DNA from: Strigamia acuminata
Taxonomy: Eukaryota
DNA length: 64,000 nucleotides
Reading direction: 5' to 3'
Assembly: GCA_949358305.1 (NCBI GenBank)
Contig: OX442314.1
Coordinates: 6,138,001 to 6,202,000, forward strand
Shown here piece after piece: positions 11,427-57,063 of the stretch. Under the pieces are notes generated by a model. The model searched no databases, was not told the origin of the DNA, and worked only from the letters and a program-made list of their open reading frames with translations. The translations under genes were made by a program, and so were the position numbers. Every line of letters begins with the position of its first letter. Position 1 is the stretch's first letter.

Positions 11427-11480
11427 TTTGTATACACATAAATAATAAAGATATATTTCGATCATTGCATATGCACTTGT

Positions 11481-16436: not shown

Positions 16437-16529
16437 GATACAAACAGTTCCTAGCACTTGCAAGAAGTGAAGAGAAGAGAGTAGGGAATTGCAGGTATAT
16501 ATAGCCATTACTAGTTTCCCACTGGTTAA

Positions 16530-22630: not shown

Positions 22631-25600
22631 TCAACCCATATCTTTATTCCGGTACCAATTATAAGCTTTTAAAATCCAATCGTACAAAGAGAGTAGTGAC
22701 ATTCCCAAACCCAGTCCTAGAATGCTACCGAAATCGCTTAAGAATTGAGATATTGGATATGCTTGTTTCTCTTCTACAATCTCTACAGAGCTATCAGCAA
22801 ATTGCAATAATAGACATGTAGACTCATCTTCTAGGTAAGTACTCTCCCGAAAAGTACTTTTGTAAAAAATATGTTTGCAAGGTTGTTTGCATTTGCATTG
22901 TTTTTGGTTCGAGTCAAGATTGCTTAAATACGCAAAATGAGCGGTAGTTACGGCACTTGTAGTGTTACAAACTGGCAAATTAGCTTTTCCCATGTATGGT
23001 AATCTGAAACAAAGAGGAGATTGGTCAAAGATGCAAATGGTTGCAGTTTATCTGCTGAAAAGGGTTAGGCGTTTTTCGAACAGATTCAATCTGTTGATGC
23101 AGCAAATGAATCTTTAATCGCTATCATGTCAAAACATGCTTGCAAGTTTGTGTGTGGTTAATGCTAACGCAATGACCCATTGCCAACCGATAATTGACAT
23201 CGGATTAGCTGATCAGTCGACGTTTAGAACACTAGCTGCATTCAAAAACTCTAAAACGTATGCAAAACTCGTTTCGTGTCTGTACGTGACGTCATTCCCA
23301 TTGAATAACATGGGAATGTTATTCAATGGGAATGACGTCATGTACAAACACGAAACGAGTTTTAGAGGCGTTTTTGAGTTTTTGAATGCAACTAGTGAAA
23401 ATGAAAATGTGTGATAAAATTGAAGCTGATGTATGAAAAGAAATGTGAACTATACCTGCAATTAACACCTCGAAATACATTGTTATGCCAGCAAGCACTT
23501 ATACACTTGAGATGAGCACTTTTGTCCTCTTCACATGGATTGCGCTTTGTATTTCTTCGTAGGATCTGTTTCGTAAAAGGAATCTTAGTATGAGCATTTA
23601 TATAATTATTTCATTTTCTACCTGAACGTCTCGAAGTACTACTTCGATGACAGACGCATTGTTTACGGTAAATGGTGTCAAAATGTTAACTCCCTCATCC
23701 CGATTATTTATGAATAGCTGCGTGTTATTATAATTCAAAATATTGAAAAAATAATTAATACTGTTTGTGCACAAAAAATATTTTTTCTCTTTTTCTATTC
23801 ACAATAAGCAGTAAATGTATATCCGAACAAAACAAACAATTTTTATAACTTTTCTCAAAAAAAGAGTAACCTAAAAACTTTATTTGCTTCTTTGTGGTTG
23901 AATAAATAGACTTTCTCGTTATCTTACTGAATTTAAGAATGCTGCTTAAAAAGACAGGGAGACTGTCAATTTAACACATTCCATTTTGTTTGAAAAATTT
24001 CGGGTGATGTCGAGTGAAAATGTTTTTTTTACACACCTTTAGCTGCGGATCACAAGCTCCTAAAGGAGTTAGATGTCTACTACACTCAATGTAAAGGTTA
24101 ATGGTATTTGTGCTTGTTTTATCTGTAAGTCAGCGAAAAAGTCAGAATTAATTTTCCAACTCTTCTGAAGGAAAGCAATTTTTACAGTTCAATTATTTTG
24201 GAAAAAATAAAAACATTGAAAAATTTCAGAATTCAAAAGTAGACTTTGAATACAACCATTAATTAACTAAAATCAGAAATTAATTTTATAAATTACCATT
24301 CCTTATTTGTGAACAATTACCAAATGGAAGTGAAATAAAATTAGTTGATGGTACCTGTAAACATAAAACTTTTATTGTTTGGTTTTTGTTTGAGGAATAT
24401 GACTTATTATATTACATCATTCTCATTATAGGTACCAATAAGTGTTAGGTCGATACTAAGCGATTCCCAGATGTTTTGCAATGACAATTTGCTGTTGAAC
24501 AATTGCCAGGGTGATATGTTGCCACACGTTTTATTGGGTTGTTTCAGTAAGTGTAATCGGGCTTCACGCATTTCTTCATTTTCTTTTTCGTCACAAATTG
24601 TGACAGAAGGAAAGTCGGAGTAGCGTCGTTGACTTATTCGAACGATTGTTGTGCTCGGTTCATCGAGGTAGTAATTGACACGAATGTGCAGGCAATACAA
24701 AGTAAATCCTGCAACAACTAATACGAATATTAACTTCAACTTTTCTAAGACTGTATGTATTTTGGTTTGCTTCTCAGGTTCATCGACTTTTTTTTTGCAC
24801 ATTTCATACAGACGCCTAATCTTATTGACGGATCTTTTTCGATGAATGTTTGATGCAACATAATATAAATACCAAATGATGTCAGGTAATGAGATTACGG
24901 ATAGCCCAATAAACAAGCCCAGATTGCCTCCTAAATCTGATAGTAAGGCAATAACGTCATATAAGTACCGTTGTTCAAAAACAGTTATTATCTCATCAGT
25001 TATTGCTAATGATAAACTTATCGTTTTATCATTATTAGCTATGCCTAAATCAGTATATGGAGTAAAAGTTATATGTTGACAAGGACGTTGACATCCGCAA
25101 GTAGCAATTGGTTCTTCATATAAAACCATTTTCCAAACGTGATTATACATCTCATCTGTATCATTTCCTATTTTGCAAAGTGGCAAATCTAACTTCAGGA
25201 ACGGAAATCTTGTATAGAATATATTTAATTAGCTGTTTAATTGTGATATCAAAGCAGAAGCATTTTCACCACATGTTCTTACCTGCATTTTAGCTTTTTA
25301 AATTTGTTAAGTAAGCAATTCCGATAGCATTCTCTGTATTCGTCTTCGTTAGAGCATGAACTGATCGGTGAATTTTGCAATATGAACTGCAATTGAATAA
25401 ATTAAAAGGTGTTGCCCAGGAATTTCAAGTCCTTAGATAAAACTTTACTTTTTTACAACTAAAATTTATTGTAGATGTTGAACCAGGATTCATCTCTGAT
25501 ACAGCAAAGTAATTTCCAACATTTTTGAATGTCAGCAAAACCTAGGGGCAAAGAGGAAAAAATTAATGTAGCAATTGCTATTGTAATTTAATCAAGTTAC

Positions 25601-26400
25601 CGCATAATAAGGCATATTGCATATCAAGTCGTAATTTTTTTTTAAATTTACTGTCAGTAACTTTCCGACAAATGATTTGCTAGAAGCGTCAGCTATGTCA
25701 ATGAATAATATTAGTGTAACAATGTAGGTATTGATAAATGCTTGTTTGTAGTTACCAAATCGAAATGTTGAACATATTCCGAATGCACTGTCAGTTTCCG
25801 TCTGAACAACAGAATTATTTGAATATCCCTATGCAAATATAGTTTAAATTGTGATTTTTAACTGAATTTCTCTATTGTTTGTTTTTTAATTTTAATTTTT
25901 ACCTTTATTTTTACACTGTCGATGTCATCAGTATTGTTAGTTGCTTTCCAAAGTGTATCCATATTGTAAGTTGGGTTTTTAATTCTCATTAGTGCAAAAA
26001 GCATGTCATTGCATGGAATGGATACTGATGTTTGGTTATTTGCTATAAGAAATTCTTTCCAAAGCCTATTCATTTTTTTTATATCTGAACTACAGACCAT
26101 TAAATCTGGTAAAGTAACATTTTCCGGTCTACTCGTTACGTCGACAGCTGTAGGATAACTGAAGTAATGCATTATTCTGTCATATGTCTGATATGTGAGC
26201 ATGCACATGCAAAATGTGAATAAAAGCAGCCAAAGGATGTGATGTTTGCTCCTCCAACGTTTCCTACTGTTTACGAAATCTTCCAATCCGATTATATCAC
26301 AGTTGGGTTTGTTGGCATAATAATTCAAAAATCGGTGAATTGTCAGACAGAGTTGTCTTTTCCTTCTTCTGTATCTCCACATCAAACTATTATTCTCCAT
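22631..26400 (-). CDS. Tandem double-subunit DEG/ENaC (pickpocket/ASIC-like) channel gene A, multi-exon
   Basis: Exon 26400-25903: TM1 + YFSYPTAV + LPDLMVC. Small exons with GICSTF and Cys-rich thumb. Central exon 25208-24416: CxCxxPC, TM2 LSDLGGNLGLFIGLS, linker, second TM1, FPSVTIC. Further exons (FGNCSQ; C..C...C). Last exon CKCKQPC...LSDFGSILGLGLGMS. GT-AG introns read in frame where I checked. Confidence 0.85.
23231..23396. mobile_element. Hairpin MITE in an intron of gene A
   Basis: Near-perfect palindrome ACTAG.TGCATTCAAAAACTC...GAGTTTTTGAATGCA.CTAGT; absent at the paralogous site in gene B (~39885). Confidence 0.75.
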
Positions 26401-32811: not shown

Positions 32812-35800
32812 TAGTATATACTTTACTAATTGATTCTCATGTAGAAGGTGGTCGGAAATAACGGACAGTCTTGGTAAGGTTAAACTAACAAGTGATTTAT
32901 TTAATATGCAAAATACATAGGTGGCGCTGGGGGTACAGCGCCCAAAGCGAACATGGCGGTCACTACACAAAACATGCAGTGAAGCCGAACACAGCATCAT
33001 TCCCCATTAATGGAACATTAATCAACTTACAGAAAACAAACAAATGCATTAAGACTTGACAATGAACCAAATTAATTAATGATAAACAATTACACTTAAT
33101 TTCTTGGGTCGTGTCCGTAGAATTGTGTCGGGTTGCGCGTGCGCTGAGGGTGGCGATACGGAGTAACAGGAGTACGGACAGGAACAGGAGGAGGTGAAGG
33201 AGCTGGACTCACGTCCCGAACATTCGGTGGGTTGGGTGAATTGGGAGGAGCATCAGGCACTTGCGGTTGAGTAACAGGCGGTGTGTTTTGGGGATCTAAA
33301 TCCACATCGAGAAGCGTAAAATGCTTACGATTTCTCCCCCCCTCCGAAGGTTGAGTGCACAAGGTCTGGCGCTTTCTGAGTTGATCCACGTGTCTATTCC
33401 ACATCACGGCGTTTCCGACGGTGACATCGTAAGTGGTAGACGAAGTTTTGGATGAAATTACGCCAGGAACCCATCTTGAGGCGTGCACGACCAAACGCTC
33501 CGACAAGAACAAGAATGGTCCATGTGTGGAAAAGGCGGACCTGTGCTTATAAAAATTTATTAAGTCAGGTGTCTTTGATTTCCATCCGTCTCGAATGCAC
33601 TGCAGGACTGCTAGCAATTGGGCGTCTGCGTCGTAGGCTGCACGCAAGGCTGACTGAGATACAGGAAACTGTGAAATGGAAACAGAAAATATCTCGTTAA
33701 CATGCATATCGAGGTCTTCTCGACCATCGACTACGGGTTGAGGATTGCGGGACAGTCCATCTGCAATTTGATTGTCGACAGCAGGCACATGCTCTATTGC
33801 GTAATCGTAGGCGCTTAGGAATATTGCCCACCGGTGCAACCGAGCTGCAACAATCTGGTTGCATCCTTTCTTTTCACCGAAAATAGCCACGAGCGGCTTA
33901 TGGTCAGTCCGCAAAATAAACTTCCTGCCAAATAGGTGATGATGAAATCTGCAGACGCCATAAACGATCGCTAAACCTTCGCGGTCTATCTGCGCATAAT
34001 TTTTCTGTGCGCTGGACAATAGGGAACTGGCGAAGGCGATTGGGCGATCGATTCCTCCTTCCAAGTGGGAAATGAAGGCGCCCACGCCGACCGGCGAGAC
34101 ATCAACGGTTAAATAAAGTTGTTTCTTAGCGTCGTAGTGTGCCAGCGCTGAATCGACAGTCACTGCAGCCTTGACCTTTGTCCAGGCCTTGTGCTGTTCC
34201 GGTCCCCACGTCCGCGGAGTGTCATCGCGTGTCAAGCGGTAAAGCGGTTCTAATAAAGTGGATAAGTTATGAATAAATTTGCCGTAATAGTTTATGAGCC
34301 CCAGAAACGACTTCAATGATAACACGTCGTTGGGCTGCATGGCGTTGCGGAGTGGAGCCAATTTTGAGTCTACTGGCGTGATTCCTTGCTTGGAAATGTT
34401 CAGCCCTAGAAACTGCTCACACGCACGCAAAAACTTGCACTTTTTCCTATTTAATGTTAAATTGGCCTTATTAAATGCACCCAGGAGCTGGTCCAAGTTG
34501 CATAAGTGGGCTGCATTTGTGACACCGGTCACAGCCGAGTCATCAATGAACGGCTGCGTACTCTCGACTTTGGCGGTCAGTTTATCCATCTCTCGTTGGA
34601 AAATTGCTGGAGCACTTGAAATTCCATAAAAAAGACGGTTTACTGTAAAAAGTCCCAAGTGGGTGTTAATTGTGCACACAGCTTGTCTCTCCGCATCCAA
34701 CTCGAGCTGGTTGTAGGCGTGATTCATATCTAATGTAGAATATGTCTCACCACCCGACAACTTCGCAGCGACGTCTTCAAACAGAGGCAAGGGATAAGAG
34801 TTGGGGAGAACTGCTTTATTAATAGTTCTATTATAGCATCCCGCTATCTTTAGTGTGCCGTCTGATTTAAAGACATGCATAATGGGTGTCGCCCATTTAG
34901 AAGAAGCGACAGGAGTTATGATACCTAAATCCTGAAGTCTGCGCAGCTCTTCCTCCAGTCGTGGCTTCATCGCGAGCGGAACTGGATAATTCTTCAAAAA
35001 TATCGGTTGAAATGTCGGATCGATGTCGATGTGAACTTTGTGGACGTTGTAGCAACCGATTTCGTCTCGGAACACGTTTGCATGGCGTGCCAAAATCGTG
35101 TCCAAACCGTCGGACGATGTCTTATCGAGCTTCTCGGGCGATGGCGTCGATGTGGACAACGAAAATACTTCCGCGCCCACCAAATCGCCAGTTGCTGACA
35201 GCAAACCAAATGCTTCAAGCCAGTCGCGGCCAAGAAGTGGAATGGGACTGTGAGTTGCCACACACAGCGGTAGCCGGAACTCGCGATCACGGTGGCGGAC
35301 GGGAACTTCGCACACCCTTTCCATTCGGAGTGTCGTGCCGCCATACGTATTCATCTGGATCGGAAGGGGCTGCAACGGAAAATTGGAAAAATATTTAGTG
35401 TATGTTTCAAGATTCACAAAAGTAGCGCCTGCTCCCGTGTCCATTTCCATCAAGAGCTTAACATGAGCAACTTGAATGGCCATAATAATAGGTTGTGTGG
35501 CTTTAATGCCAATTGCGTTGACGGTCGTCGTCAGGTCCGGCTCGACAGCGTAGTACATAAGCTGCTGGGGCATCTCGATCGTGTGAACTCGAGCCTGCGA
35601 CTTCACGACTGCTCTGCAAACTGGTTTGATGTGGCCAGTTTTTCCGCAACCGTGGCACGTGGCGTCGCGAAAGCGGCACGCTTCACGCGTGTGCGACGTT
35701 TTGCCGCAAGAAGAGCACGCCGTCGCATTTCCTTTCGAGTTAGATGGATGGCGGACTGCTGGAAACGAGGTAGTGCCCCTCGAGGAGCGTTTGCTACCTT

Positions 35801-37588: not shown

Positions 37589-37963
37589 TTAAGTACAATG
37601 TTTTTGTGCCATTGAGTGCAAATTGATTTCGTGATTTTTGTACCAATTATAAGCGTTTAAAATCCAATCGTAGAGTGACAGCAATGACATTCCCAAACCT
37701 AATCCTACAATGCTGCCCACATCGCTTCTCCTCTGTAGTCTCTGTAAAACTACCAAAGGTAAAAGTTATGATTGTTGTATGTCACTTATCAAATTTATTC
37801 CCACGAATACTGCTTCGGTAATAAATACTTCGCAAGGTTGTTTACATTTGCATCGTTTTTGATTCGCGTTATAATTATTTAAGTAGGTTAAATGACCGGT
37901 AGCTTCGTCTGTTGCATTGTTGCAGGCTGACAAATTAGGTTTTGCAGTATATGATTGGTAATC
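37589..37963 (-). pseudogene. Orphan, frameshifted terminal exon of a DEG/ENaC paralog
   Basis: Acceptor TTTGTTTCAG, then CKCKQPC in one frame and SDVGSIVGLGLGMSLLSLYDWIL in another, with a deletion between; no upstream exons of its own. Confidence 0.75.
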
Positions 37964-38468
37964 TGAAACAAACAGTAGTTCGGTTATGGAATTTTTACTT
38001 TTAATTTGATTAAATCTGTGGTAGAATGAACCTAAAAATGTTTTTGAATTATTCTTTATTTTTCCTTCTAAAAGATGCAGTGTACATTCGAATACAGTCA
38101 AAATAACAATTTTTGCTCAATAATTTGAAACGAGTTACATCAATAGGTAAAAGTACAAACTTGAACATTTAATAAACCGAGTCCAACTTCTGCTCATCTG
38201 CATAGAGCAAAACCACACTCGGCTATGGGGTGCATTAATACGCCATAAGTTATACCCAATTAAATATAAAATTGAGAACAGAAATGGTTTTAGTTTATTT
38301 TTTGTGTATTCAAACAAATATAAGACGATGTATAAAGTTTGTAGGGAGTTTGAAGGGCACAAAAAATTGCACTGGGCGCTGATAGACCTGGAGACAGACT
38401 CTGACTTTGACAATAATGATTTTTGCTGGTGCATGTTGAACTAACAATTCGTGATGATTAAATATACA

Positions 38469-38972
38469 TGCGTTCAATCTGGATTAGAAGAGGTGACTTT
38501 CACTTTCCTTCCTTTCCTCAAAGTCACTTTTCATTGAATGCACTTACTTACCACCATTTACCGTCTGCCACACGTGAATTTACCGTGTGCCACACGTGAA
38601 TCTACCGTGTGCCACACGTAAATTTACCGTGTGCCACACGTGTGAATTTACCGTGTGCCAAACGTGAATTTACCGTGTGCCAAACGTGAATTTACCGTGT
38701 GCCACACGTGAATTTACCGTGTGCCACACGTGTGAATTTATCGTGTTCATCGAGAACAAAATGGCTGCCACTGTAGCTGTGTTAAATGTGCAATCCGCAT
38801 GCGCACGCACATAAGTGACTTTTAAAAGGTGGAAAAAGAACTTTCCAGTTACTTTCCTTAAAGTCACTTAGGTGACTTTACTTAGTCAAAATGTGACGTA
38901 ATTATCGTCACTTCCGCCCTCTGAAAGGCAGTTAAATCAGTTAAGCGACTTTCTACTAGCAGATTGAACGCA
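38469..38972. mobile_element. MITE with TGCGTTCAATCTG TIRs containing a 22-bp minisatellite
   Basis: TIRs at both ends; internal (TTTACCGTGTGCCACACGTGAA)n at ~38557-38740; absent at the paralogous site ~22525. Confidence 0.75.
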
Positions 38973-38974
38973 CC

Positions 38975-39255
38975 TATTCATTTTTTAATCTGTGACAAAA
39001 GAAATTTTAAATATTCTTATGTGCTTAGTTAATACTGTATTAGTTACATTCATTTTTTAATCTGTGACAAAAGAAAATTTTAAATATTCTTATGTGCTTA
39101 CCGTAGCTAATATAAGTTACATTTATTTTTTAATCTGTGACAAAAGAAATTTTAAATATTCTTATGTGCTTAGCTAATATTAGTTACATTTACTTTTTAA
39201 TCTGTGACAAAAGAAATTTTAAATGTTCTTACAAGTGCTTAGCTAATATTAGTAA
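38975..39255. repeat. ~65-70 bp tandem repeat (about four units) downstream of gene B
   Basis: TTTTTAATCTGTGACAAAAGAAATTTTAAATATTCTTATGTGCTTA repeated; single copy at the paralogous site in gene A. Confidence 0.85.
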
Positions 39256-39272
39256 TACTTTATTTAAACCCA

Positions 39273-42200
39273 TTAGAGTGTAAATCTACAACCCAAATCT
39301 TGATTCCGATACCAATTATAAGTTTTTAAAATCCAATCGTACAAAGAGAGTAGGGACAGTCCCAAACCAAGTGATAGAATACTACCGAAATCGCTTAAGA
39401 ATTGAGATATTGGATATGCTTGTTTCTCTTCTACAATCTCTACAGAGCTATCAGCAAATTGGAATGTTAGAAAAGTGGATTGATGTACTAGATAATTACT
39501 CTCCCGAAAAGTACTTTTGTAAAAAATATGTTTGCAAGGTTGTTTACATTCGCATTGTTTTTGATTCGAGTCAAGATTGCTTAAATACGTGAAATGAGCG
39601 GTAGTTACGGCACTTGTAGTGTTACAAACGGGCAAATTAGGTTTTCCCATGTATGGTAATCTGAAACAAAGAGGAGATTAGTCAAAGATGCAAATGAATG
39701 CAGTTTATCTGCTGAAAGGGGTTATGTGTTTTTCGAACAGATTCAATCTGGTGTTTTTCAAATGAATCTTTAATCGCTATCATGTCAAAACATGCTTGCG
39801 AGTTTGTGTGTGGTTAATGCTAGTGCAATGACCCATTGCCAACTGATAACTGACCGCAGATTAGTTTATCAGTCGATGTTTAGAACAGCGAAAATGAAAA
39901 TAGATGTGATAAAATTTCGGCTGATGTATGAAAAGAAATGTGAACTATACCTGCACTTAACACCTCGAAATACATTGTTATACCGGCAAGCACTTTTACA
40001 CTTGAGATAAGCACTTTTGTCCGCTTCACATGGATCGCGCTTTGTATTTCTTCGTACGATCTATTTCGTAAAAGGAATCTTAGTGTGAGCATTTATATAA
40101 TTTATTTCATTTTTTACCAGAACGTCTCGAAGTACTACGAGTACTTGGATTCCAGGCGCATTGTTTACAATAAATGGTGTCAAAATGTTAACTCCCTCTT
40201 CCCGATTATTTATGAATAGCTGCGTGTTATTATAATCCAAAATATTTAAATTAACGATTAATACGGTTTCTGCACAAAAAATATTTTTTCTCTTTTTCTA
40301 TTCACAATTAGGAATAAATGTGTATCCGAACAAAACACAAACAATTTTTATAACTTTTTTCAGCTTTGGAGTAACCTAAAAACTTTATTTGCTAATTTGT
40401 GCTTGAATAAATAGACTTTCTCTTTATCTTACTGTATTTAAGAATGCTACAGAGACTGTCCATTTAATACATTCCATTTTGTTTGAAAAATTTCGGGTGA
40501 TGTCGAGTGAAAATGTTTTTTTACACACCTTTAGCTGCGGATCACAAGCTTCTGAAGGAGTTAGATGTCTTTTACACTCAATGTCAAGCCTAGTGGTTTT
40601 TGTGCTTGTTTTATCTGTAAAATAGGGTTAAGGTCAGAATTAATTTTCCAACTCTTCTGCAGGAAAGCAATTTTTACAGTTCAATTATTTTGGAAAAAAA
40701 ATAGAAACATTGAAAAATTTCAGAATTCAAAAGTAGACTTTGAATACAGAGTACAACCATTACCATTAATTAACTAAAATCAGAAATTAATTTTGTAAAT
40801 TACCATTCCTTATTTGTGAACAATTACCAAATGGAAGTGAAATAAAATTAATTGATGGTTTCTGTAAATAAAAAACTTTTATTATTTGGTTTTTGTATGA
40901 GGAATATGACTTATTATATTACATCATTCTGATTAGAGCTAATATACGTTAGGTCGATACTAAGCGATTTCCAGATATTTTTCAATGACAATTTGCTGTT
41001 GAACAATTGCCAGGGTGACATGTTGCCACAAGTTTTATTGGGTTGTTTCAGTAAGTCTAATCGGGCTTTGCGCATTTTTTCATCCCATTTTTCATCACAA
41101 ACTGTGAGAGAAGGATAGTCGGAGTAGCGTCGTTGACTTATTCGAATGATTGTTATGCCCGGTTCATCGAGGTAGTAATTGAAACGAATGTGCAGGCAAT
41201 ACAAAGTAAATCCTGCAACAAATAATACGAATATTAGCTTAAACTTTTCTAAGACTGTATGTATTTTGGTTTGCTCTTCAGTCTCATCGACTTTTTTTTT
41301 GCTCATTTCATACAGACGCCTAATCTTATTGACGGATCTTTTTCGGCGAATGTTTGATGCAACATAATATAAATACCAAATGATGTCAGGTAATGATATT
41401 ACGGATAGTCCAATAAACAAGCCCAGATTGCCTCCTAAATCTGATAGTAAGGCAATAACGTCATATAAGTACCGTTCTTCATAAACAGTTATTATCTCAT
41501 CAGTTATTGCTAATGTTAAACTCATCGTTTTATTATTTTTAGCTATGCCTAAATCAGTATGTGGTGTAAAAGTTATATGGTGACAAGAAGGTTGACAACC
41601 ACAATCAGCAATTGGTTCTTTAAATTTAACCGAGGACCAAACTTGAGAATACGTTTGATGTGCATCATTTCCGAACTTGCAAAGTGGCAAATCTAACTTC
41701 ATGGACGGAAATCTTGTATACAAAAAATTTCATCAGCTGTTTAATTGTGATACCAAACATGAAGCATTTTCACCACATGTTCTTACCTGCATTTTAGCTT
41801 TTTAAATTCGTTATGTAAGCAATTCCGATAGCATTCTCTGTATTCATCTTCGTTAGAGCATGAACTGATCGGTGACTTTTGCAATATGAACTACAAGTAC
41901 AATTGAAAACATTAAAAAGTGTTGCCCAGAAATTTCAAGTCCTTAGGTAAAAATTTACTTTGTTACAACTAAAATTTATTTCAATTGTAGAACCAGGATA
42001 CATCACTGATACAAAATAGTGATTTCCAACATTTTTGAATATCAGGTAAACCTAAGGGCAAAGAGGAAAAAATTAATGCAGCAATTGCTATTTTAATTTA
42101 ATCAAGTTACCCCATAATGAGGTTTATTGCACATCGAGTCGTAATTTTTTTTAAAATTCACTGTCAGTAACTTTCCGACAAATGATTTGCTAGAAGCTTC

Positions 42201-42908
42201 AGCTATGTCAATGAATAATGTTAGTATAACAATGGAGGTAGTGAAAAATGCTTGTTTGTAGTTACCAAATCGAAATGTTGTGAATATTCCGAATGCACTG
42301 TCAGTTTCCGTCTGAACAACAGAAGTATTTGAATATCCCTATGGAAATGTAGTTTAAATGGTAATTTTTAACTGAATTTCTCGATTGTTTTTTTTTATTT
42401 TAATTTTTACTTTCATTTTTACACTGTCGATGTCATCAGTATTGTTAGTTGCTTTCAAAAGTGTATCCATATCGTAAGTTGGGTTTTTAATTTGCAATAG
42501 TTCATAAAGCATGCTAGCGCATAGAATGGATTCTGATGTTTGTTTATTTGCTGTAGGAGTTTCTTCCCAAAGCCTATTCGTTTTCTTTGTGTCTGTACTA
42601 GAGACCATTAAGTCTGGTAAAGTAACATTTTCTGATCTACTCGTTACGTCGACAGCTGTAGGATAACTGAAGTAATGCATTATTCTGTCGTATGTCTGAT
42701 ATGTGAGCATGCACATGCAAAATGTGAATAAAAGCAGCCAAAGGATGTGATGTTTGCTCCTCCATCGTTTCCTACTGTTTACGAAATCTTCCAATCCGAT
42801 TATATCGCAGTTGGGTTTGTTGGCATCATCCTTCATTAGTTGGTGAATTGTCAGACGGAGTTGTCTTTTCCTTCTTCTGTATCTCCAGATCAAACTATTA
42901 TTGTCCAT
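39273..42908 (-). CDS. Tandem double-subunit DEG/ENaC gene B (close paralog of A)
   Basis: Same exon order as A; ORFs 42354-43010 (TM1), 40914-41723 (TM2-linker-TM1'), 39273-39650 (TM2'); introns also alignable with A. Confidence 0.85.
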
Positions 42909-45382: not shown

Positions 45383-48300
45383 TCAGGCAAAAACAGTTTT
45401 AATAAATTGGGTCACTTTTTGATTTCGAAACCAATTGTAACTGTTTAAAATGCAAATGTAAAAAGAGAGCAAAGACATTCCCAACGCTAATCCTAAAATG
45501 CTGCCAATATCACTTAATAATTGAGATATTGGATATTTTTGTTTCTCCTCTGTACTCTCTATAAAACTGTCAGCAAATTTCAATTCCAGAACTGTGTAGA
45601 AATTAAGGCTCATTTGTATTTCATGCATAGGAGCTTGGAAAAATATTTTTTTGCAAGGTGGTTTGCATTTGCATCGTTTTTGATTTGAATTATAGTTGTT
45701 TAAATATGTGGAATGCGCTGAAGAGATGTCTTCCGTCGTGTTGCAAAGTAACAAATTAGGTGCTGACATATAAGGCAATCTAAAACAGTAAGTTGTTTGA
45801 ATGTAATGTTGCCAGAATGTGTCAAAGAGAGACAACGAGTACCTGCAATCGATCATGTGATATAAATTGTTTTGAATGCAGGCATTTTGACACTCTACAT
45901 AGGCACCGTTGTTTCTTTCACATGGATTACGCTTAGTGTCTCTTCGTACAGTCTATTTCGAAAAATTTATTCATTACTATACTCTGGCATACAATAAGAG
46001 TGGCCTTTCTCCCATTGGTCCAGCCTCATTACTCCTAACTGTAGACTGTGTCATACCACCAGGAAAAGTAGTTTTATTTTTTTTAATTTTTTGATTATTA
46101 TAATGATTAAAATGATGTATTTTTATTCTATGCTGTTTATATTTCAATAATCATGTTTGTTCAGTTTATTGATTGCTTAGTCTAGAAAGCAAACAATTTT
46201 TGAATTCTTTTTCTGAGTACAATGTCTGTACATCAAGTGCAATTCTGGTGTTTGGGTCTATTTTTTAGTATCACTACACCAGTAAATTGGCTCGGCCAAT
46301 GGGAGAAAGGCCGCTCTTATAGTATGCTAGAGTATAAGTATTATTTGATTTAGGTTTGCTACCTTAAATGTTTGAAGCATTACTGAATTCACAAATCCAT
46401 ACTTCGCCATCGATGGTGCCAAAATGTTAATTTCCTCATCAGGATTGCTCAGATAAAACTGAAAGTTATTGAGTGATTATACATTCAATCTACAAATATT
46501 GTTAGAACTTTTATGGTCATATGTTAGTTTAAACCATTTCCCACAGGTTTGCTAATGGTTGTATCATACCCATAGATGCTGGTCACAAACTTTTGGATCT
46601 GGAGGGAAAAGCCATTCTAAAGTGATGATCATTTTAGCCGTTAACAGAGTTGACGTGTCTAAAAAATTAAAAAGTTTTTGATTAGGTTTAAACCTTCGTC
46701 CAGACAAGACCTCTTGTTGCGTGAAACCTTACAGTGGCAAATACCACAAGGTCCCAATTGCATGAGTACAAATACGGACAAAACCAGCACAGAGAACAGA
46801 AGAAGCTCAAGATGTACCGTACCGCCCCGTTTAAACGCCCGGGTTCAAAAAAGCGCCAGCCCCATTTTAGCGCCGGGCAGTCATCGGCGATTTACTAAAT
46901 TGGCGCCGGCCCCAAATAAGCGCCGGGCCCCCAAAAATCACCGATTTTTTGCAAAAAATCGGTGATTTTTGCGGGAAAATCACCTTTTTTTGCGAAAAAT
47001 CGGCGATTTTGCGGTTATGCGCCCGGTTCATTTAATCGCCGGGTTTCATATTGGCGCCGGGAGAAGCAGCTCAAAAAAAGAATTAAACGCCCGAGCGTTT
47101 AAACGGGGCGCTACGGTATCTTACATAAACTTAAATGAATAAATTACCTGCTTTTACATGTGAACAATGGCCAAAAGGAAGTGGATTAAGAGTTTTTGTA
47201 ACATCCATTTGCATTGCTTTATATCCAGTAATGTGCTACAAATATGAAATAATTGTAAAATAAATTCCTACAAAAGTGCTTTAGTCGTTTTACCTCACTT
47301 ATATCTTCCTTAACATTAAGATTTCTATGGATGTTCAACGAATCCCATATTTTTTTTAATGACAAATTCTTACTGAACAATTGCCAAGGCCGTATGTTAC
47401 TGCAGGATTTGTGCGGATGTTTAAGCAAATTTAATCTAGCTTTATCCAACCTCGGATTTTTTTGTTCCCCACAAAGAGTCACTGAGGGCAATTCAGTGCT
47501 GCGACGTTGCACTATACTAACGACTCTTATTACCGGTTCATCAATGTAGTAATTGAAACGAATTTGCATCAAGTATAAAGTAAATCCTGTACTAATTATT
47601 ACCAGTATTAACTTGAGCTTTGCAAAGAGTCCATTTGGTTTAATTTGCTGATTGCTAGCAATTGTTCTCCTTTTGCATATCTCGTAAAGTTTACGAATCT
47701 TCTTTACTGGTCGATTTTTAGAGATATTTGATAGAATGCAATAGACATACCAAATAATTTCGGTTATTGAAATTATGGACAAACCAAGAAACAGGCCGAG
47801 ATTGCCTCCTAAGTCTGAGAGTAAAGCAATAACATCGTACGTGTACCGTTCTTCATACACATTAATTTCTTTATGGGTTATTTCTAAAGACGTAGACATA
47901 ATTTTTCCATCATTTTCTTCCTCTCTATCAATGTACGGTTGGAAAATTAGTTTGTGACATGGACGGTGGCATAAACAATTAACAATTGGATCAGTGTTCT
48001 CAATTAATCCATTTGCCACACCGTATTGTTTGTGTGTGGTATTTGAACCTTGACAAAGTGGTAAATTTATCTTCATATCAATAAATGGAAATCTGCAAAG
48101 AAATTTAGTATCAAATTGAGTGGTGATGCGCCAGTTTGTGAGTGTTCAGACGGATACAATGTGGTCAAGGGGAGAACCATTAGGCGCTTGACGCGACACA
48201 CACTACTTGTATAAGATTTACCCAGAAATACATGAGTTCTGGTTATTGTTATAGCTTGTGACCGCTTGGCCACCCACGGATGACCAGCGTCACTGCCACC

Positions 48301-51300
48301 CGCCGTCCAATGCTCCTAAGGTCATCCCTCTTCGCAGAGTGGTATGACCCAGTATAGGAAAGAGGGAGCTGAGTGGTGTGGGGTGTGGAGGGAGAGAGAC
48401 AGAGAGAGAAGGATGCTGGGTCTCAACCGATACAGGTGTGTGAAGAAAGGTTTTGAAGCCAGCAATGGTAGTTGTGCCCTGTGCTGACCCTGCTCTCCTC
48501 CCCATTCACCACTGCAACACTCAGTAGTGTGATGATAGATCCACTACAGCCTCCATGAGCGGTTGCATGGGCCGTACAGGTGAGTACGGCAGAATGGTAT
48601 GTTTAACCGGCCACGTCATGTGTAGGGCGCGGGCTGATATTTGGTGGGGTGCAACAACGTTCAATACCTTTGTCGCCCAAATTTATTTTGTTCAATTTTT
48701 TTTTAAATTTTTTGCCAATTCCAATTCCAACTTACTGCCTGTAGTTGGTTGCAATACACAACAGGCTAGACAAAGATCTTCTAAAATCTTCACATTAACC
48801 TCACAAAAATTTTGAAATGCAATAAGGTATTGCGGATAATTAGTTCCCTGAATAACAATAATGACTTCAAATTATAATGTAGATTTTGAGAAATAAAAAA
48901 GTCGACTTGTTGGTTCAAAACTTCTTCAAGACGAAGTTTATTCTATGTAAAACACGACAATTAAAATAAAAAGGTGAAATGACTAAAAAGTCCATGCTAA
49001 AAGGTAAAGCGCATGGACAAGCAATGACGAGCTCCAAAAGGGGAGCACGAGATAATTGATGGCACATTGGCAATTAGGAGAGTTCTAGGAAGAGAGAGAA
49101 AAACGGTTCAAGGTGAATTAATCACTCCTAAAAGAACAAAATACAATTTCAAAGGAATTAAAATAAAGTGTAATCAAAATTAATAACTCATCAAAATCAA
49201 ATTATTACAACAACCAATGAACAATTAAAATCAACAATATATCAAAATTTCACATTATTATAAAAAAAACAAATAAACAATGGCAATAATAATTAAAACG
49301 TGTAAAATCGTGTCGGTTTTCACAAAAATCTCTCAAAATCTACATAAACCACCCAAAATTCTCCAAAAACCAGCAGAAACCAGCCAAAACTTTCAAAAGT
49401 GGAAGTTTGTAGCTATTGTAATTCCCCAAAGCGATGAATTTTGTAGGAAAAAAAAATAGTAACAACCTATGTTACTAATAGTTCATATTGAAAAAATTTA
49501 ATGCATCGATGATGAAGTGGGGCGCGGAAGATCGCCTTACTTAAAAATGGGTCGCAATGCTAAAAAGTTTGAGAACCCCTGGTCTAGGGGATTTAAGTGT
49601 CTTAGATGCATTTCCCTCAGCCTGCGTGTAGCGATTGAGTCTTTCTGACACCCGTGGTCGGTTTCACCTTCTCCGTCACGTCGGTGAGGCTTTACCGAGG
49701 GGCAATGTCCACCGAACGTGACCACGCTTGAACATTCAGGTCCCAGAGGGCGAGAGACTCACCACACCGATCTTGCAAGTCGGATTCGCAAACAGCATTG
49801 CACATGTGGTCGGATGCAACAGTTCGCTCTGCTGTCGGAATAACAACTTGTGGGTCCCTCCATTGACCCACACCACTTCCGAATGGTCATTTGGAGTTTT
49901 GGACCCACTGGTCATTTCCATGGTCCGCAGCTCCACCGCGCCAGACGAACGTGCAGTGCTTGGAGCTGCCGTAAGGACATTCTGGCGTGCAGGGAAGTGA
50001 TCTGCGCAGGGGCAGCCGGTCACAAGTTCCTACTAAATCCAGTTGAGACAAACAGTGGTTACCTGCAGGTCAGAGTGTTTCTTAATTTCTTTAAGAGACA
50101 TCTTTTGTAGCATTCTTTGTATTCGCTCTCACTGGTGCATGGATACTTTGAAGAATTGAGAAATACGTACTGCGAGAAAATTTAAACAGAATTAACATTT
50201 CAAGAAATTTTAACTTTTCAAATTCAAGGTTTACTTTGCTGAAACTCAAATTTATTTTTGGCTTAGTGTTGTGGTATTTATACGTCACGAAATTAAATTG
50301 TTTCTCAAAATCATTTGATGACAACACAATCTAAATTAGAAAAAAATAATTAGACACACAGACACATGGACCAAAGAAATAATTAAGTTTGGGATTTAGG
50401 ATGGGGATTTGGGGATGGTTTTGCACTTATTAACCCTCCCCACCCCAACCTAAGGTCAATTTTGACCCCAGAAAGTGTTTTTTATTTTTTTTTCTATCAA
50501 AATAAATGTATTTTTTTCTGATTTTTTTCGTATTTTGCTTTTTCGTCACTTGCAACAATAAAAAAAATATACGAACTGATAATTTTTAAAAAAAAATTTT
50601 GGGTTAATAACATCGATTTTGGGCTAATAACATAATTTTTTTGGTCCAAAATGTCATTTGTTGGTCCAAATTATCATTTTTTTGGTCCAAAATGCCAATT
50701 TTTAAATCTAAAATGTCATTTTTTGGTCTAAACTTGTTTTTTTCCGTTACGTCGCAAGGACGAATTTGTGCATGGCCGCCTGATCGGTACCGTCGGTATT
50801 ATGGCCGTGATTACGGTATACCGTACTGTGGTATTTTTGCCACTTACCCTTATCTTCAAACCCTATTTCTAATGATCTAAACACACTAAATCCAAAAACA
50901 ACAAAAAAACTACAATCAGAATCAAAATAAACATAAAATTAATGGAATGAAGTTGGACGCTCCACGCGTTCATGTGCTGCGGCGGCCATCTTTGTTGGGG
51001 TCAAAAATGACCCGGGTTGGGTGAGTAGGGATTTTTTTTTAGGTTGGGGCTGCTAGGGTTAAATTACGATTACATAGTAAGGAGAGTCAGAGCAAATTTC
51101 ATTGTCAGTTTTTTCAATATCTACGGTCAGCAATTTTCCTACGAACGATCGACTGGAATTCTTATCTGACCAATTATAAAATATTTTATTTGCCATTTAT
51201 TTTTCACTAGTGATAATAATTAATTTACGGAATTGAAATGCTAAACACATTCCTAATGGATGGTTAATTTCTGTCTGAATAACACTTTTGTCCGAATATC

Positions 51301-51861
51301 CCTATAAGAAAAGAAATTACTATACAAGTAATTAAAAACAAAATAAAATTAACAAATTGTTCCTTTTACTTTCATTTCCACGCGGACTATGTTTTTAGAC
51401 ATATTGGTCGCTTTCCAAAGTTCTTCCACATTGTAGGTTGGCTTTTTTGACAAAGTTTTCACCATGTTTGCGCATTTCAAGAATTCTTCTTTACTAGGCT
51501 TAACTTTTGGCTGAGTTTTGTTCCAAAGCTTAGCCATTTCCTTTGTGTTGCCACCACAGATCAACAAGTTGGGTAAAACTACGTCTTCCGATCTACTCGT
51601 CACATCAACCGCAGTAGGATAACTTAAGTAATGCATTGTTCTGTCGTACGTCTGATAAGTCAGCATGCACGTGCAAAATGAGAATAAAAGTAGCCAAAAG
51701 ACTTGCCTTTTGCCACAGTTAATTCCGCTATTTACGAAATCATCCAAACCAATTAAATTGCACATCGGTCGACTTGCATCATCTTTCATTAATTGACGTA
51801 TTTTCAGACGAAGTTTTCTCACTCCCCGTCCATTTCTTCTCGGAACATAATAATAGCGCAT
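45383..51861 (-). CDS. Tandem double-subunit DEG/ENaC gene C (introns expanded by repeats)
   Basis: ORFs 51349-51861 (TM1, LPNLLIC), 47219-48076 (LSDLGGNLGLFLGLS, linker, TM1', LPSVTLC), 45383-45856 (LSDIGSILGLALGMS); small intervening exons recognisable. Confidence 0.8.
45978..46336. mobile_element. MITE in an intron of gene C (related fragment at ~58180-58265)
   Basis: Inverted ends TATACTCTGGCATACAATAAGAGTGGCCTTTCTCCCATTGG / CCAATGGGAGAAAGGCCGCTCTTATAGTATGCTAGAGTATA. Confidence 0.7.
46817..47116. mobile_element. pogo/Tigger-like MITE (TA TSD, CCGTA termini)
   Basis: TA|CCGTACCGCCCCGTTTAAACGC ... GCGTTTAAACGGGGCGCTACGG|TA. Confidence 0.75.
48250..48600 (-). repeat. Dispersed repeat copy 2 (family of 17700-18270)
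   Basis: Reverse-complement matches to the GCTCATGGAGGCTG, CAGTGGTGAATGG and GGTGGCCAAGCGGTCAC blocks. Confidence 0.65.
50434..51058. mobile_element. piggyBac-type non-autonomous element in an intron of gene C
   Basis: TTAA|CCCT.....CCCCAACC ... GGTTGGGG.....AGGG|TTAA; subterminal inverted GGTCA.TTTTGACCCC. Confidence 0.75.
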
Positions 51862-52589
51862 GATTTTTGTTATTCAAATCAAACTTGTCCTTATCTAATA
51901 AGAGGTAAGTTAGAGAGCCGTTTGTTTGCTAGTGAAAAGAAAGACAACTTGTTGTTTATTTGTTGCCAAGTTAATAATCGACAAGCTTTTGTTTACTTGC
52001 AGTTTATTCCCTAGAAACATGTTAATGTTCTAAAAAAGTCATAAAATTACCAAAGGTGAATGTGTATTGATATACTGTAATGTCACATCGATGTAGAAAG
52101 CTAAAGTTACGTTCAATATAGTAAATTGACTAAACTTCCAAGGACTTATTTTGGTGTGTGTAACCTGTATTCAACTACTTTACACGTTTCTATCATTTCA
52201 TACTGATACATTGAATGAACATATTAATGTTTATAAATTATTTTTTTATTTTGTCATATCAAATTATAATCAAGAATAATAATTGAGTTATAGTATGAGA
52301 TTAAATTTCAAACATGAAAATTTAAAAAAAAAAACAATTTATGTTGATTAAATATAGAATTAATTTTTACATACGAGATTAAAAATATTTTTGTTTACAC
52401 AATTCGATAACAAAATCAAAAAACTGTTTTGTGTATCTGTCCATTCAGATTTTAGAATTAGTATATTTAAAATAAATTTAAAAAATAATAATAGGCCCAT
52501 TCAATGTTTTGTATGACTGAAAGTGGTTATACACAGGTCGCCGTGAAGGGAGAACAACAAGTAAGCTGATTCATGATTCTATAAAAGAT

Positions 52590-53450: not shown

Positions 53451-53725
53451 AAAAGTTTTTGTTAGCTTCTTGCATTATATTTCTCTCTTGCAGATCTTTG
53501 TTAAAAACAATTTTTGAAACACAACTTCAACTTTGTGAATCAATGGGATTTTATGTCAATATTCTTGCAGTTTGGATAATTTTATGAGTTTTCTATGCAG
53601 TAGTGCGTTGCTTGGGAACAAATATTATGGGAGCAAACAAAAAAGCTTGTCGGTTATGAATTTAGCGACAAAACATACGTCAAGCTACTCCTCTCCACAA
53701 AGCTGAGGCATTTTTAACCTAAAAA

Positions 53726-56700
53726 ATGATGCGCAATACTTACGTGATGAGGAAAAATGGTCGAGGATTGAGAAAACTTCGCTTGAAAATTCATCAATTT
53801 ATGAAAGACGACGCAAATCGGCCAAGATGCAATTTAATTGGTTTGGATGATTTTGTAAATAATAGAATTAGTTGGCGCAATTGCCACGTATTTTGGCTGC
53901 TTTTATTCTCATGTTGCACGTGCATGCTCACTTATCAGACGTACAATAGAGTAATGCATTACTTAAGTTATCCTAAAGCGGTCGATGTAACCAGTCAATC
54001 AGATGATGTCATTTCACCAAACTTGATGATCTGTAGTAGCAATACAGTCGAAATGGCCCGGCTTTGGAATAAAACTTATCAGACCTTTAAAGATCCTAGA
54101 GACCGAATGTTGAAATGCGTAAACATGGTGAAAACTTTGGTGAATATCTCTACTCATGACGTGGATGAACTTTGGAAAGCGAGTAATGTGGCCAAACAGA
54201 TAGTTCGCGTAGACATGAAAGTAAAAAGAAATATTCGTAGTTGTGTTTTGAAATTATAAGTTTCTTTTCGTAGGGATTTACAAACAAAAGTTTTGTCCGT
54301 AAGGAAATTGACTCCACTTTAGGAATGTGCTCAGCGTTTCAATTTCGTAAATAAATTGTTGTTATTAATCGTGAATAGTAAGTGGCAAATAAAAATTTTA
54401 TTTGGTCAGATAAGAATTCGATTAGCTCTTTTGTCGGAAAATCACTGACAGTGGATATTGAAAAACCTGACGATCAAGTTTGCCGTATAGCTTCTTACCA
54501 TGTAAATGTTCATAACTAGAACATCATAACAAAACAAACCTAATTATTATTACTTTTTTCCTATACTTAGTTAGTGCTGTCACCCAATAATTTCGGAAAA
54601 CAAATTACGTTTATTGCTCGAACAAATCTTAAGGCTAAAACAAAATTTAGTTTGAGTTACAGCAAAGTACAGTTTGAAACTCAGAAATTTAAATTATTCC
54701 AGTGTTTATTTAATTTTACATTTCAGTACATATTTCTCAATACATCTTCGGATTTATGCTCCAGTGAAAGTGAATACAGAGAATGCCACAATAGTTGCCT
54801 GTTACGGAAATTGAAGGAAAATTTAACCTGCAGGTAAAATGTATGATTGTGCTTGTTTCTGTGACTGGTATGATCTTCGCCATGGAAGCCTGGGTTAGGT
54901 TACCATGGTTTGGGACGCATACTCACGTAATAACAGATTGTTGGTTGTTTGTCTATAATCGTTAGTCTATAGACTCCCATCACTCGGCAACCGAACCCCA
55001 GGTATGACGTGGTGGGTGAAACATCATTCTGTCGTACTTATCTGTACGACCCATTTAACTGCTCATGGAGGCTGTAATGGGCTTATCACCACAATACTGA
55101 CCGTCGCAGTGGTGAATGGGAAGGAGAGCAGTCAGCATGGAGCACAACAGCTCCTGCTGGCTCAGGACCTTCTTCACACGTAAAGCTGTCTTGGTTGAGA
55201 CCAAGCACTCTTCCTCGTGTCCTCACTCTACGGTGGTCGCTTTCCTACTCTCTTCTCTCCACACCACTCAGCTTCCTCCTTCCCTCACTGGGTCATACCA
55301 CTCCGCAAAGAAGAGATGACCTTGTCCCTTTTCCAGGTATTTTTCTCCTCCTTTTCGGTTGCGGCAATGGTACGAAAAGCTCGACGAAACGCTTCGGTCA
55401 CTCGGATTTCGGAAGATGCCTGCGTGCAACTGCGTGTACATCTATGGCACTTCGGCAGTGAAGCGGGTCAGCCTTGGGTGGCCCAGCGGTCACATCTCAT
55501 CTCCCCCCCGCGGAAAAGCAGGGACATAGGAGCCACACACAACACCCAATGAGGTTACACAGACCCAGATAATCACGACAGAGTGGAGCTGATTTCGTCC
55601 GAAGACGACAGCACCGCGTACCATATTCAAGGTGTAGCAACATTTGGGTGACGGGAATAAATATGTGATTGTGCTTGTCTCAATGAGCTTTAGAAAGTGC
55701 TGTAGAAAGTGCCCGGTCTAGCGAGGTACCTAGTCTTTAGAGTTTTTTTCTAGAACTATCAGACATTAAAACTATCAGACATTTAAAATTCACCATTTTA
55801 TGAAATTTATCGTATAATTTTAAAATTTTCAATTTAATGTCGTTTTTTGTATAATATTCAAAATTAAGTGATGATTTTGGTGTAACATTCAAAATTTGGT
55901 TTTCATGAGTCTAAAATTCAAAATTTGGATTTCTTTCTTGGCCTAAAATTCAAAATCTCAGTGCACAAGGTGGCAAAATGGCAATACTGTATATCGTATG
56001 TATTTATTTTGTCAATTTCTGCAGTTAAATTTTGGTTATTTAAGCAAAATAATAATTTATATATATATATATTTATATATGCATTTATCCTTAGTCTAAT
56101 CACATTTCATTCTGTATTTGTTTTAAGATTTCCATTTATTGATAAGAAGATAAATTTGCCACTTTGCAGAAGTTCTATTGACACTCACAAGCAATACTGT
56201 ATTGCTAATAAATTGATTCTAACCATCAATTCGGTTGCTAGTTGTTCATGTCACCGTCCGTGTCAACAACTGGTTATTCAAGCGTTCATTGATACAGAGC
56301 AAGCAGTTAATGAAAGTATCAAGTCTACATCTTTAGCGGTAACTGATGGGACAATCAATGTGTATGAAGAACGGCGCACATATGATGTTATTGCTTTACT
56401 CTCCGATTTAGGAGGCAATCTGGGCCTATTTCTTGGTCTATCTATACTTTCATTAACCGAAACACTTTGGTATTTATATTGCATTCTATTAAATTTTATC
56501 AAACGGAAACCAGTTAATAAAATTAATAAGATTCATCACATTTATGAAATGTTAAAAAGGAAAGCAATTTCTAGTAATCAGCAAATTATACCAAATGGAT
56601 TCTTTGCAAAGCTAGAGTTAATACTGGTAATAGTTAGCACAGGATTTACTTTATTTTTGTTGCAAATGCGTTTAAACCACTATATTGATGACCCTGCAAC

Positions 56701-57063
56701 TAAAGTCGTTAGTATAGTTCAACGGCAGATTATCAAATTTCCTTCTGTCACTGTTTGCGGTGAAAATTTTACGGCTGAGAGGAAAAAAGCCAGATTAAAG
56801 ACAAACGAAACCTGCAAACACAAATCGCCCTGTCAATTGTTCAATGAGAAATTGTCATTGGAAGATATATGGAATTCACTAAATGTGCATGAAACAATTA
56901 ATATCAATGATGATACAATTCGGGTAATAGTATTAAAACATTCTCGAAAATAATTATGCAGTTATTTTATACTTTTAGCAAATTACTGGATTTAAAGCAA
57001 CACTAGACATCACAAAAAATCTTATTCCACTTCCGTTTGGCCATTGTTCACAAATAAATGCAG
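53726..57063 (+). CDS. Tandem double-subunit DEG/ENaC gene D; second subunit incomplete within the window
   Basis: ORF 53726-54259 (TM1), small exons, ORF 55925-56953 (TM2-linker-TM1'-FPSVTVC), exon LPFGHCSQ ending ~57063; I could not find the remaining exons or TM2' before 64000. Confidence 0.75.
54880..55500 (+). repeat. Dispersed repeat copy 3
   Basis: Matches the blocks shared with 17700-18270 and 48250-48600. Confidence 0.65.

What the first reader, a model, noticed from the sequence alone, without database searches (positions are those of the whole stretch)
22631..57063. Gene family encoding natural head-to-tail dimers of DEG/ENaC subunits (4-TM 'concatemer' channels)
Seen: in four paralogs (central ORFs 24407-25186, 40914-41723, 47219-48076, 55925-56953), a complete DEG/ENaC TM2 (LSDLGGNLGLF.GLS) is followed without a stop, inside one exon, by a ~40-aa basic linker and then a second TM1 with YxxEP/FPSVTxC. 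Each gene has one N-terminal TM1 exon, and A, B and C end in a second TM2 exon (LSD.GSILGL.LG.S). Established: DEG/ENaC subunits normally have two TMs and assemble as trimers. Inference: a covalent dimer does not fit a trimer alone, so it would need a separate third subunit (fixed 2+1 stoichiometry), link two trimers (3 dimers = 2 pores), or be cleaved at the basic linker. The open, conserved junction in the diverged A/B and C/D lineages argues for selection rather than read-through accident. I do not know whether this architecture has been described.
Basis: partly seen in the sequence, partly recalled or inferred. Interest (0 to 1): 0.88.

Follow-up and report, generated by a model that had tools for sequence, protein, structure and literature searches.

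The report
Naturally fused double-subunit DEG/ENaC channels
Four neighbouring genes, likely from a soil centipede, carry two different sodium-channel (DEG/ENaC) subunits joined head to tail in one reading frame (three genes complete, one cut short), so the protein they are predicted to make would fill two of the three places in a pore and likely needs a separate third subunit, a layout I found in no paper I could search.

Summary
In all four paralogs TM2, a 35-39 residue basic linker and a second TM1 lie in one exon. A, B and C give stop-free 11-exon GT-AG models of 791-812 aa; D lacks exons 8-11 in the window. The two halves are only 21-24% identical, yet repeat the same five introns in position and phase, so two whole paralogous genes fused. 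Both halves show purifying selection between A/B and C. Strigamia maritima has many unannotated models with the same junction; first halves and second halves each form a clade, pointing to one old fusion followed by family expansion. A model of one such protein folds as two complete subunits, closest to the centipede channels BRTNaC1 and PDPNaC1. The second half has a different pore-lining helix. Best reading: a covalent heterodimer completed by a third subunit (2+1), likely sensory. Furin cleavage is unlikely because the linker is cytoplasmic. Side finding: decapod crustaceans encode three DEG/ENaC repeats in one chain. No RNA, assembly or current was shown for the window's genes.

The parts
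22631..26400 (-). Gene A, 11 predicted exons, 791 aa, TM1-ECD-TM2-linker-TM1-ECD-TM2
   Evidence: GT-AG model without internal stop; exons 26400-25903, 25828-25756, 25692-25601, 25541-25449, 25386-25283, 25208-24416, 24354-24297, 24122-24037, 23717-23622, 23565-23456, 23003-22631
24416..25208 (-). Gene A central exon 6: thumb and TM2 of repeat 1, linker (about 24847-24743), TM1 and start of the extracellular domain of repeat 2
39273..42908 (-). Gene B, 11 predicted exons, 797 aa; recent duplicate of A (about 90% DNA identity)
   Evidence: central exon 41712-40923
45383..51861 (-). Gene C, 11 predicted exons, 812 aa
   Evidence: central exon 48092-47294; halves 47-49% identical to those of A
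53726..57063 (+). Gene D, exons 1-7 open (581 aa); exons 8-11 not found in the window, so truncated or interrupted
   Evidence: central exon 56128-56923
37625..37984 (-). Orphan, broken copy of the last exon (thumb and TM2 of repeat 2) with an internal deletion and frameshift

Best explanation
These genes encode, in one reading frame, two different DEG/ENaC subunits joined by a short linker, and the predicted four-helix protein likely acts as a ready-made two-thirds of a trimeric channel that is completed by a separate single subunit (2+1). Shown: the continuous frame, the repeated exon plan, selection on both halves, a family with one clade of first halves and one of second halves, different pore helices in the two halves. 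Inferred: two tandem paralogs fused by loss of the stop, spacer and start between them; the full-length protein is made; the linker is cytoplasmic and stays uncut; the dimer fixes which subunit sits next to which and gives an asymmetric pore; the third place is taken by one of the animal's ordinary two-helix subunits; the role is sensory, as for the nearest characterised relatives.
For: Stop-free 11-exon models for A, B, C. Intron phases 0,1,0,0,2 occur in both halves; introns 3-5 fall in the same alignment column, intron 2 one column apart, intron 1 within 6 columns, although halves are 21-24% identical. dN/dS between A or B and C is 0.32-0.34 for half 1 and 0.40-0.43 for half 2; TM2 of repeat 1 0.13. 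34 of 158 proteins held had a TM2-to-TM1 junction; of 30 proteins looked up, 18 are Strigamia maritima and 17 of those have the junction. First halves (13 rows) and second halves (16 rows) are separate clades, 97/96 and 97/89; a recent internal duplication in the window's subfamily is rejected, AU p 0.004. An AlphaFold2 model of the S. maritima dimer P0009 (pLDDT 69, pTM 0.62) aligns with whole DEG/ENaC subunits over both residues 46-387 and 422-785, best BRTNaC1 Z 21.4 and PDPNaC1 Z 19.8. At the positions of PDPNaC1 Gly375 and Ser376 (mapped), first halves have Gly in 14 of 14 and Asn in 13 of 14, second halves Gly in 1 of 11 and Asn in 1 of 11. Head-to-tail ASIC1a fusions of 2, 3 or 4 subunits give currents in oocytes (PMC4529235, passage). 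Fixed 2:1 make-ups exist: ASIC2a/3 (PMC10329638, title and passages); a human ENaC beta-gamma dimer structure is listed (9BTU). S. maritima keeps ordinary single subunits such as P0026.
Against: No RNA run was listed and the two runs laid behave as genomic DNA, so splicing and expression are predictions. No assembly was tested and no third subunit is identified. The linker's own dN/dS is loose (0.31-0.75 on 35 codons) and a neutral 35-codon stretch stays open 10-21% of the time per lineage, so the linker alone proves little. Between A and B overall dN/dS is 0.87, which could be relaxation in a young duplicate. D is incomplete. The His-Gly motif before TM1 is absent in both halves (alignments), though PDPNaC1 lacks it and conducts (PMC12714832, section 10). 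The tree used LG+G4, hand-picked rows and carries long-branch warnings; P0043 was put in the second-half group after the first tree was seen. The engineered ASIC1a dimer conducted without an added monomer, with breakdown bands present.
Confidence: 0.55

Rival explanations
1. The fused protein assembles by itself: two chains make one pore with one repeat left hanging, or three chains link two pores, giving paired or clustered channels.
For: An engineered ASIC1a dimer gave currents when expressed alone (PMC4529235, passage). Both halves keep a full fold and a GxS belt. It needs no unknown partner.
Against: A 35-39 residue linker leaves little room to reach a second pore (inference). The position-specific pore helices fit a fixed order better than a mix of 1-2-1 and 2-1-2 pores. 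Breakdown products could explain the ASIC1a dimer currents.
Confidence: 0.2
2. The same gene supplies its own third subunit: skipping five consecutive exons gives an in-frame, ordinary two-helix chimera of the two halves, which pairs with the full-length dimer.
For: All 15 of 15 such joins tested (5 each in A, B, C) are in frame, stop-free and 407-424 codons long.
Against: This follows automatically from the duplicated exon plan, so it is no sign of use. No transcript shows it.
Confidence: 0.1
3. The two halves end up as separate subunits, by cutting of the linker or by transcripts that stop or start inside the central exon; the fusion only ensures joint expression.
For: The linker is basic (8-11 Lys/Arg) and predicted with low confidence (residues 391-421 under pLDDT 50 in P0009). 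B has an R-x-K-R site and D an AATAAA in the linker. Engineered concatemers show smaller bands.
Against: The linker is cytoplasmic by topology, where basic residues are expected. Furin site in 1 of 4, AATAAA in 1 of 4, GT[AG]AG donor in 0 of 4, and C has no Met in the linker. In this subfamily repeat 2 has lost its own N-terminal segment.
Confidence: 0.1
4. The protein is made whole but does not conduct; it serves as a ligand-binding or regulatory partner of other DEG/ENaC channels.
For: No His-Gly motif; bulky residues at a pore-facing position of repeat 2; fast change of the extracellular domains between A and B.
Against: TM2 of repeat 1 is canonical and the most conserved part (dN/dS 0-0.22); PDPNaC1 conducts without His-Gly.
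Confidence: 0.04
5. Assembly artefact or decayed read-through of two adjacent genes.
For: D is incomplete, there is an orphan broken exon, and the region is rich in mobile elements.
Against: Same junction in four diverged paralogs and in 17 S. maritima models from another data set; frame kept against intron indels; separate clades of halves.
Confidence: 0.01

Closest known systems
[quoted passage not shown]
   Same: Best solved matches by sequence (E 6e-20 for P0009; 6e-12 for C's central exon) and by fold (Z 21.4 and 19.8); similar compact extracellular domain; PDPNaC1 also lacks His-Gly.
   Different: They are two-helix subunits of 421-431 aa solved as homotrimers; here two unlike subunits share one chain. 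About 20% identity, so heat or proton gating cannot be transferred.
DEG/ENaC/ASIC superfamily (Pfam ASC, PF00858), including heteromers of fixed make-up such as ENaC and ASIC2a/3
   Same: Each repeat has TM1, a cysteine-rich extracellular domain and TM2 with GxS.
   Different: The family is defined with two helices per polypeptide and three polypeptides per channel (PMC9822975, passage); here make-up would be partly fixed in the gene.
Engineered ASIC concatemers (PMC4529235, PMC10329638; passages)
   Same: Same head-to-tail join of a C-terminus to the next N-terminus; functional in oocytes.
   Different: Man-made, with artificial linkers and like or chosen subunits; this one is natural and old.
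Tandem channels of other families: K2P and TPC (two repeats), Nav/Cav (four repeats) (recalled, no call)
   Same: Gene duplication and fusion fix subunit order and allow an asymmetric pore.
   Different: Those pores are fourfold, so two or four repeats divide evenly; two repeats do not divide a threefold pore.
Unannotated three-repeat DEG/ENaC proteins of decapod crustaceans (database entries only: Halocaridina, Penaeus, Cherax, Petrolisthes, Palaemon)
   Same: Head-to-tail DEG/ENaC repeats with position-specific TM2 signatures.
   Different: Three repeats, enough for a whole pore; a separate clade (SH-aLRT 99, quick tree), so an independent origin is likely; in some the middle repeat has a shrunken extracellular domain.

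Membership tests
DEG/ENaC (PF00858) | Pfam ASC match in each repeat | tested here: met
   first exon, central exon (two stretches) and last exon above the curated cut-off in A and C; central exon of D
DEG/ENaC (PF00858) | TM1, large extracellular domain, TM2 in each repeat, with the palm/thumb fold | tested here: met
   for the window; fold shown on the S. maritima relative P0009, both halves, not on the window's own spliced proteins
DEG/ENaC (PF00858) | Only two transmembrane helices per polypeptide | tested here: not met
   1-2-1-2 order in A, B, C; this is the novelty. Each repeat is a family member, the whole chain is not a canonical subunit
DEG/ENaC (PF00858) | Cysteine-rich thumb | tested here: met
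   thumb cysteines align in all six halves of A, B, C; 13-17 Cys per half
DEG/ENaC (PF00858) | GxS belt in TM2 | tested here: met
   GLS in repeat 1 of A-D; GMS, GLS, GMS in repeat 2 of A, B, C
DEG/ENaC (PF00858) | His-Gly motif before TM1 (common, not universal) | tested here: not met
   Ile-Gly in repeat 1, segment absent in repeat 2; also absent from PDPNaC1
DEG/ENaC (PF00858) | Trimeric assembly | not tested
DEG/ENaC (PF00858) | Cation conduction | not testable with these tools
   needs electrophysiology
Centipede BRTNaC1/PDPNaC1 sensory channels | Orthology to BRTNaC1 or PDPNaC1 | not tested
   nearest solved relatives but not placed in the trees
Centipede BRTNaC1/PDPNaC1 sensory channels | Heat or proton gating, antennal expression | not testable with these tools
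   no RNA or functional data

The most novel reading that the evidence does not exclude
Arthropods have hard-wired DEG/ENaC subunit order into single genes several times: an old two-repeat family in geophilomorph centipedes that leaves one exchangeable slot (2+1, a combinatorial receptor system), a second, younger two- to three-repeat set in Strigamia, and single-chain three-repeat channels in decapods. This would be the trimeric counterpart of the step from Kv to TPC to Nav/Cav, with position-specific pore helices.
Probability: 0.5. Interest if true: 0.9.

Novelty: new variant of a known kind. Interest (0 to 1): 0.8.

Why it matters
DEG/ENaC channels are described as trimers of separate two-helix subunits, and labs build concatemers by hand to learn what each position does. 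A natural, expanded family of fused dimers, and natural three-repeat chains in crustaceans, would show how evolution specialises the three positions of the pore once order is fixed, give ready-made asymmetric channels for cryo-EM and recording, and add a large overlooked candidate sensory family in centipedes. It also means that long multi-ASC gene models should not all be dismissed as annotation merges.

Tried and rejected
No whole genome is held, so family size in this animal is unknown. No RNA holder listed; this is no evidence on expression. The two runs laid on 38500-46000 cover introns and show no GT-AG splice joints at the predicted introns among the 15 of 31 joints shown; 1144 and 1618 contigs laid, most under 99% alike, which hints at many paralogs but is no copy number; genes A and D, and most of C, were not covered. 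Metagenome scan: 458 pattern matches, none confirmed. Word-index homolog searches with the window profile and with the dimer profile returned 1 protein each, so no dimer was found outside Strigamia; these searches are weak. The fold of a three-repeat protein (P0083) was uninformative, pLDDT 41. Complex prediction and the protein atlas were not available: no verdict. The careful 100-row tree did not finish; the quick tree is cited for the decapod clade, and a careful 46-row tree for the centipede halves. Left out of the trees: units under 200 aa, fragments such as P0002, P0003, P0012, P0017, P0021, P0027, P0032, P0039, and about 30 single-subunit hits; two decapod rows held two repeats fused by a missed cut. 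Positive selection on extracellular domain 1 between A and B (dN/dS 1.36) is not significant (p 0.38). A shrunken extracellular domain was considered and rejected: repeats span 340-351 aa, like single subunits. Multi-repeat models from a midge, a beetle and a leech have repeats that are each other's nearest relatives and may be merged tandem genes; not counted as support. Literature: 10 searches found no natural tandem DEG/ENaC; searches are weak because the phrase used matched 0 times in the listed papers. Vizueta et al. 2020 is not held; most supplements of PMC4244043 were not searched; subscription papers are not covered. PMC8438182 (passages) notes 46 insect PPKs (8%) with three to five predicted helices, without interpretation in the passages seen. 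Earlier scan findings: none on this architecture.
Full report
Observation. Pfam ASC matches two stretches in the central exons of A, C and D, and one each in the first and last exons of A and C (B was not scanned). Reading splice sites by eye and checking them in a script gave 11-exon models for A (791 aa), B (797) and C (812), every intron GT-AG and no internal stop. D is open through exon 7; neither tblastn nor a profile of the late exons finds its exons 8-11 in the window. An orphan broken last exon lies at 37625-37984.

How the gene is built. Each half has five introns in phases 0,1,0,0,2. When the halves are aligned, introns 3, 4 and 5 fall in the same column, intron 2 one column apart and intron 1 within six columns, although the halves share only 21-24% identity. 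This checks the hand-made models and shows that two whole paralogous genes were joined, the last exon of one and the first exon of the next now being a single exon. No GT[AG]AG donor lies in any of the four linkers, an AATAAA in one, a furin-type site in one, and C has no Met there.

Selection. Between A or B and C (dS about 1) dN/dS is 0.32-0.34 for half 1, 0.40-0.43 for half 2 and 0.13 for TM2 of repeat 1; the linker gives 0.31-0.75 on 35 codons. A neutral linker would stay open in 10-21% of lineages, so it is weak evidence alone. Between the young duplicates A and B, exon gaps are 2 of 2 in frame while 12 of 13 intron gaps are not. Their amino-acid changes pile up outside the membrane (140 non-synonymous to 34 synonymous in the extracellular domains, 13 to 11 in helices and linker, Fisher p 0.008), but dN/dS 1.36 in domain 1 is not significantly above 1 (p 0.38). 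That pattern fits either receptor tuning or relaxation.

Family. A profile of the four central exons against 1.84 billion proteins gave 53 hits at E up to 1e-10. Of 158 proteins then held, 34 had TM2 followed by TM1 (one is an overlap artefact). Of 30 looked up, 18 are uncharacterised Strigamia maritima models, 17 with the junction; the search favours such proteins, so this is no genome-wide share. The closest is about 50% identical, so the window is likely from a related soil centipede. In a 46-row tree the first halves (13 rows, 97/96) and second halves (16 rows, 97/89) are separate clades; holding both halves of the window's subfamily together is rejected (AU p 0.004; hypothesis set after a first tree; LG+G4; long-branch warnings). 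P0043, scored as a single subunit, groups with second halves and begins with a first-half thumb, so it is likely a faulty dimer model. One old fusion followed by expansion is the simplest reading. Three further S. maritima models (P0005, P0006, P0008) have repeats that cluster with each other and with single subunits: a second, younger concatenation, and P0005 with P0006 suggest three repeats.

Structure and pore. An AlphaFold2 model of the S. maritima dimer P0009 (pLDDT 69, pTM 0.62; linker under 50) has four long helices and two beta-rich domains; both halves align with whole DEG/ENaC subunits, best BRTNaC1 and PDPNaC1 of Scolopendra, which are also the best sequence matches. These are heat- and proton-gated two-helix channels of antennae (PMC9974506 passages; PMC12714832 passages and section 10). 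Using the alignment, repeat 1 keeps Gly-Asn at PDPNaC1 positions 375-376 (14 of 14 and 13 of 14), repeat 2 rarely does (1 of 11 each), and 5 of 11 second repeats against 2 of 14 first repeats have Ser at position 378. In PDPNaC1, Ser376 is a pore site of proton block and Gly378Ser raises sodium selectivity. So the pore would be asymmetric (inference). The His-Gly motif is missing, as in PDPNaC1.

Mechanism. The linker joins TM2 to TM1 and is cytoplasmic by family topology, which explains its basic residues and argues against furin. Head-to-tail ASIC1a fusions of 2, 3 and 4 subunits conduct (PMC4529235 passage), so the join is workable. Two repeats cannot fill a threefold pore. I favour completion by a separate single subunit (0.55), because order-specific pore helices suit a fixed arrangement, fixed 2:1 heteromers occur in the family (PMC10329638), and S. 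maritima keeps single subunits. Self-assembly with a spare repeat or paired pores (0.2), a monomer made by five-exon skipping, which is in frame in 15 of 15 joins (0.1), and splitting (0.1) stay open.

Side finding. The same search returned proteins of 1001-1289 aa with three TM2 motifs from Halocaridina rubra and Penaeus vannamei and from unnamed Logan contigs; a further search added Cherax, Petrolisthes and Palaemon (10 hits). Pfam finds three ASC stretches in P0113, P0093 and P0080. The Logan contigs are 3.4-4.6 kb for frames of 3.0-3.8 kb, across several records per cluster, which suggests transcripts or intronless genes rather than merged models (inference). Their repeats form one clade in the quick tree (SH-aLRT 99) with position-specific TM2 signatures. 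A fold of one was uninformative.

Novelty. Ten literature searches found no natural tandem DEG/ENaC (two were weak). The S. maritima genome paper does not mention ENaC in its main text but lists sodium transport among lineage-specific expansions (PMC4244043 passages; supplements mostly unread). A review of insect PPKs counts 46 with three to five predicted helices without comment in the passages seen. A recent family paper defines the subunit as two-helix (PMC9822975 passage). The architecture already sits in UniProt as uncharacterised models. The library lacks subscription papers and Vizueta et al. 2020, so a prior mention cannot be excluded.

Verdict. A real, selected, likely undescribed architecture of a known family: new variant of a known kind, interest 0.8. 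The gene-level claim is strong; expression and assembly are inferred.

Noticed in passing
window 1500-16923: Maverick/Polinton-type element with terminal inverted repeats (1500-1937 and 16530-16923, about 86% alike), integrase with chromodomain, A32-like ATPase, adenovirus-type protease, AlkB-like oxygenase and a BIR/IAP ORF; the 1502-aa ORF looks like its polymerase by eye but matched only zinc fingers and endonuclease VII in Pfam.
   Followed up: partly
window 32812-36771: LTR retrotransposon between genes A and B; its two 185-bp ends are 98.9% identical, so the insertion is recent; RT and RNase H domains.
   Followed up: partly
window 42908-42266 (gene B, exons 1-2): Repeat 1 of B has lost both the Cys of the PxxTxC-type motif and the Cys of the FGxC motif; these two form a disulfide in ASIC1 (recalled). 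Paired loss would fit a folded, expressed protein.
   Followed up: no
window 57282-58278: Short inverted-repeat element right after exon 7 of gene D, similar to one in an intron of gene C; may relate to the break in D.
   Followed up: no
P0113, P0093, P0080, P0055, P0083, P0126, P0154, P0160-P0167: Three-repeat DEG/ENaC single chains, named ones all from decapod crustaceans; one subgroup has a much reduced middle extracellular domain. Candidate natural single-chain channels, worth their own study.
   Followed up: partly
P0005, P0006, P0008, P0012: A second, younger concatenation in Strigamia maritima with similar repeats, probably up to three per gene.
   Followed up: partly
P0013, P0028: Deep-branching dimers with a longer junction (68-69 against 41-62 residues) that keep a pre-TM1 segment in repeat 2, a likely trace of the second gene's original N-terminus.
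   Followed up: no
window 61503-63008: 501-codon minus-strand ORF with no Pfam match, downstream of gene D; possibly part of a mobile element.
   Followed up: no
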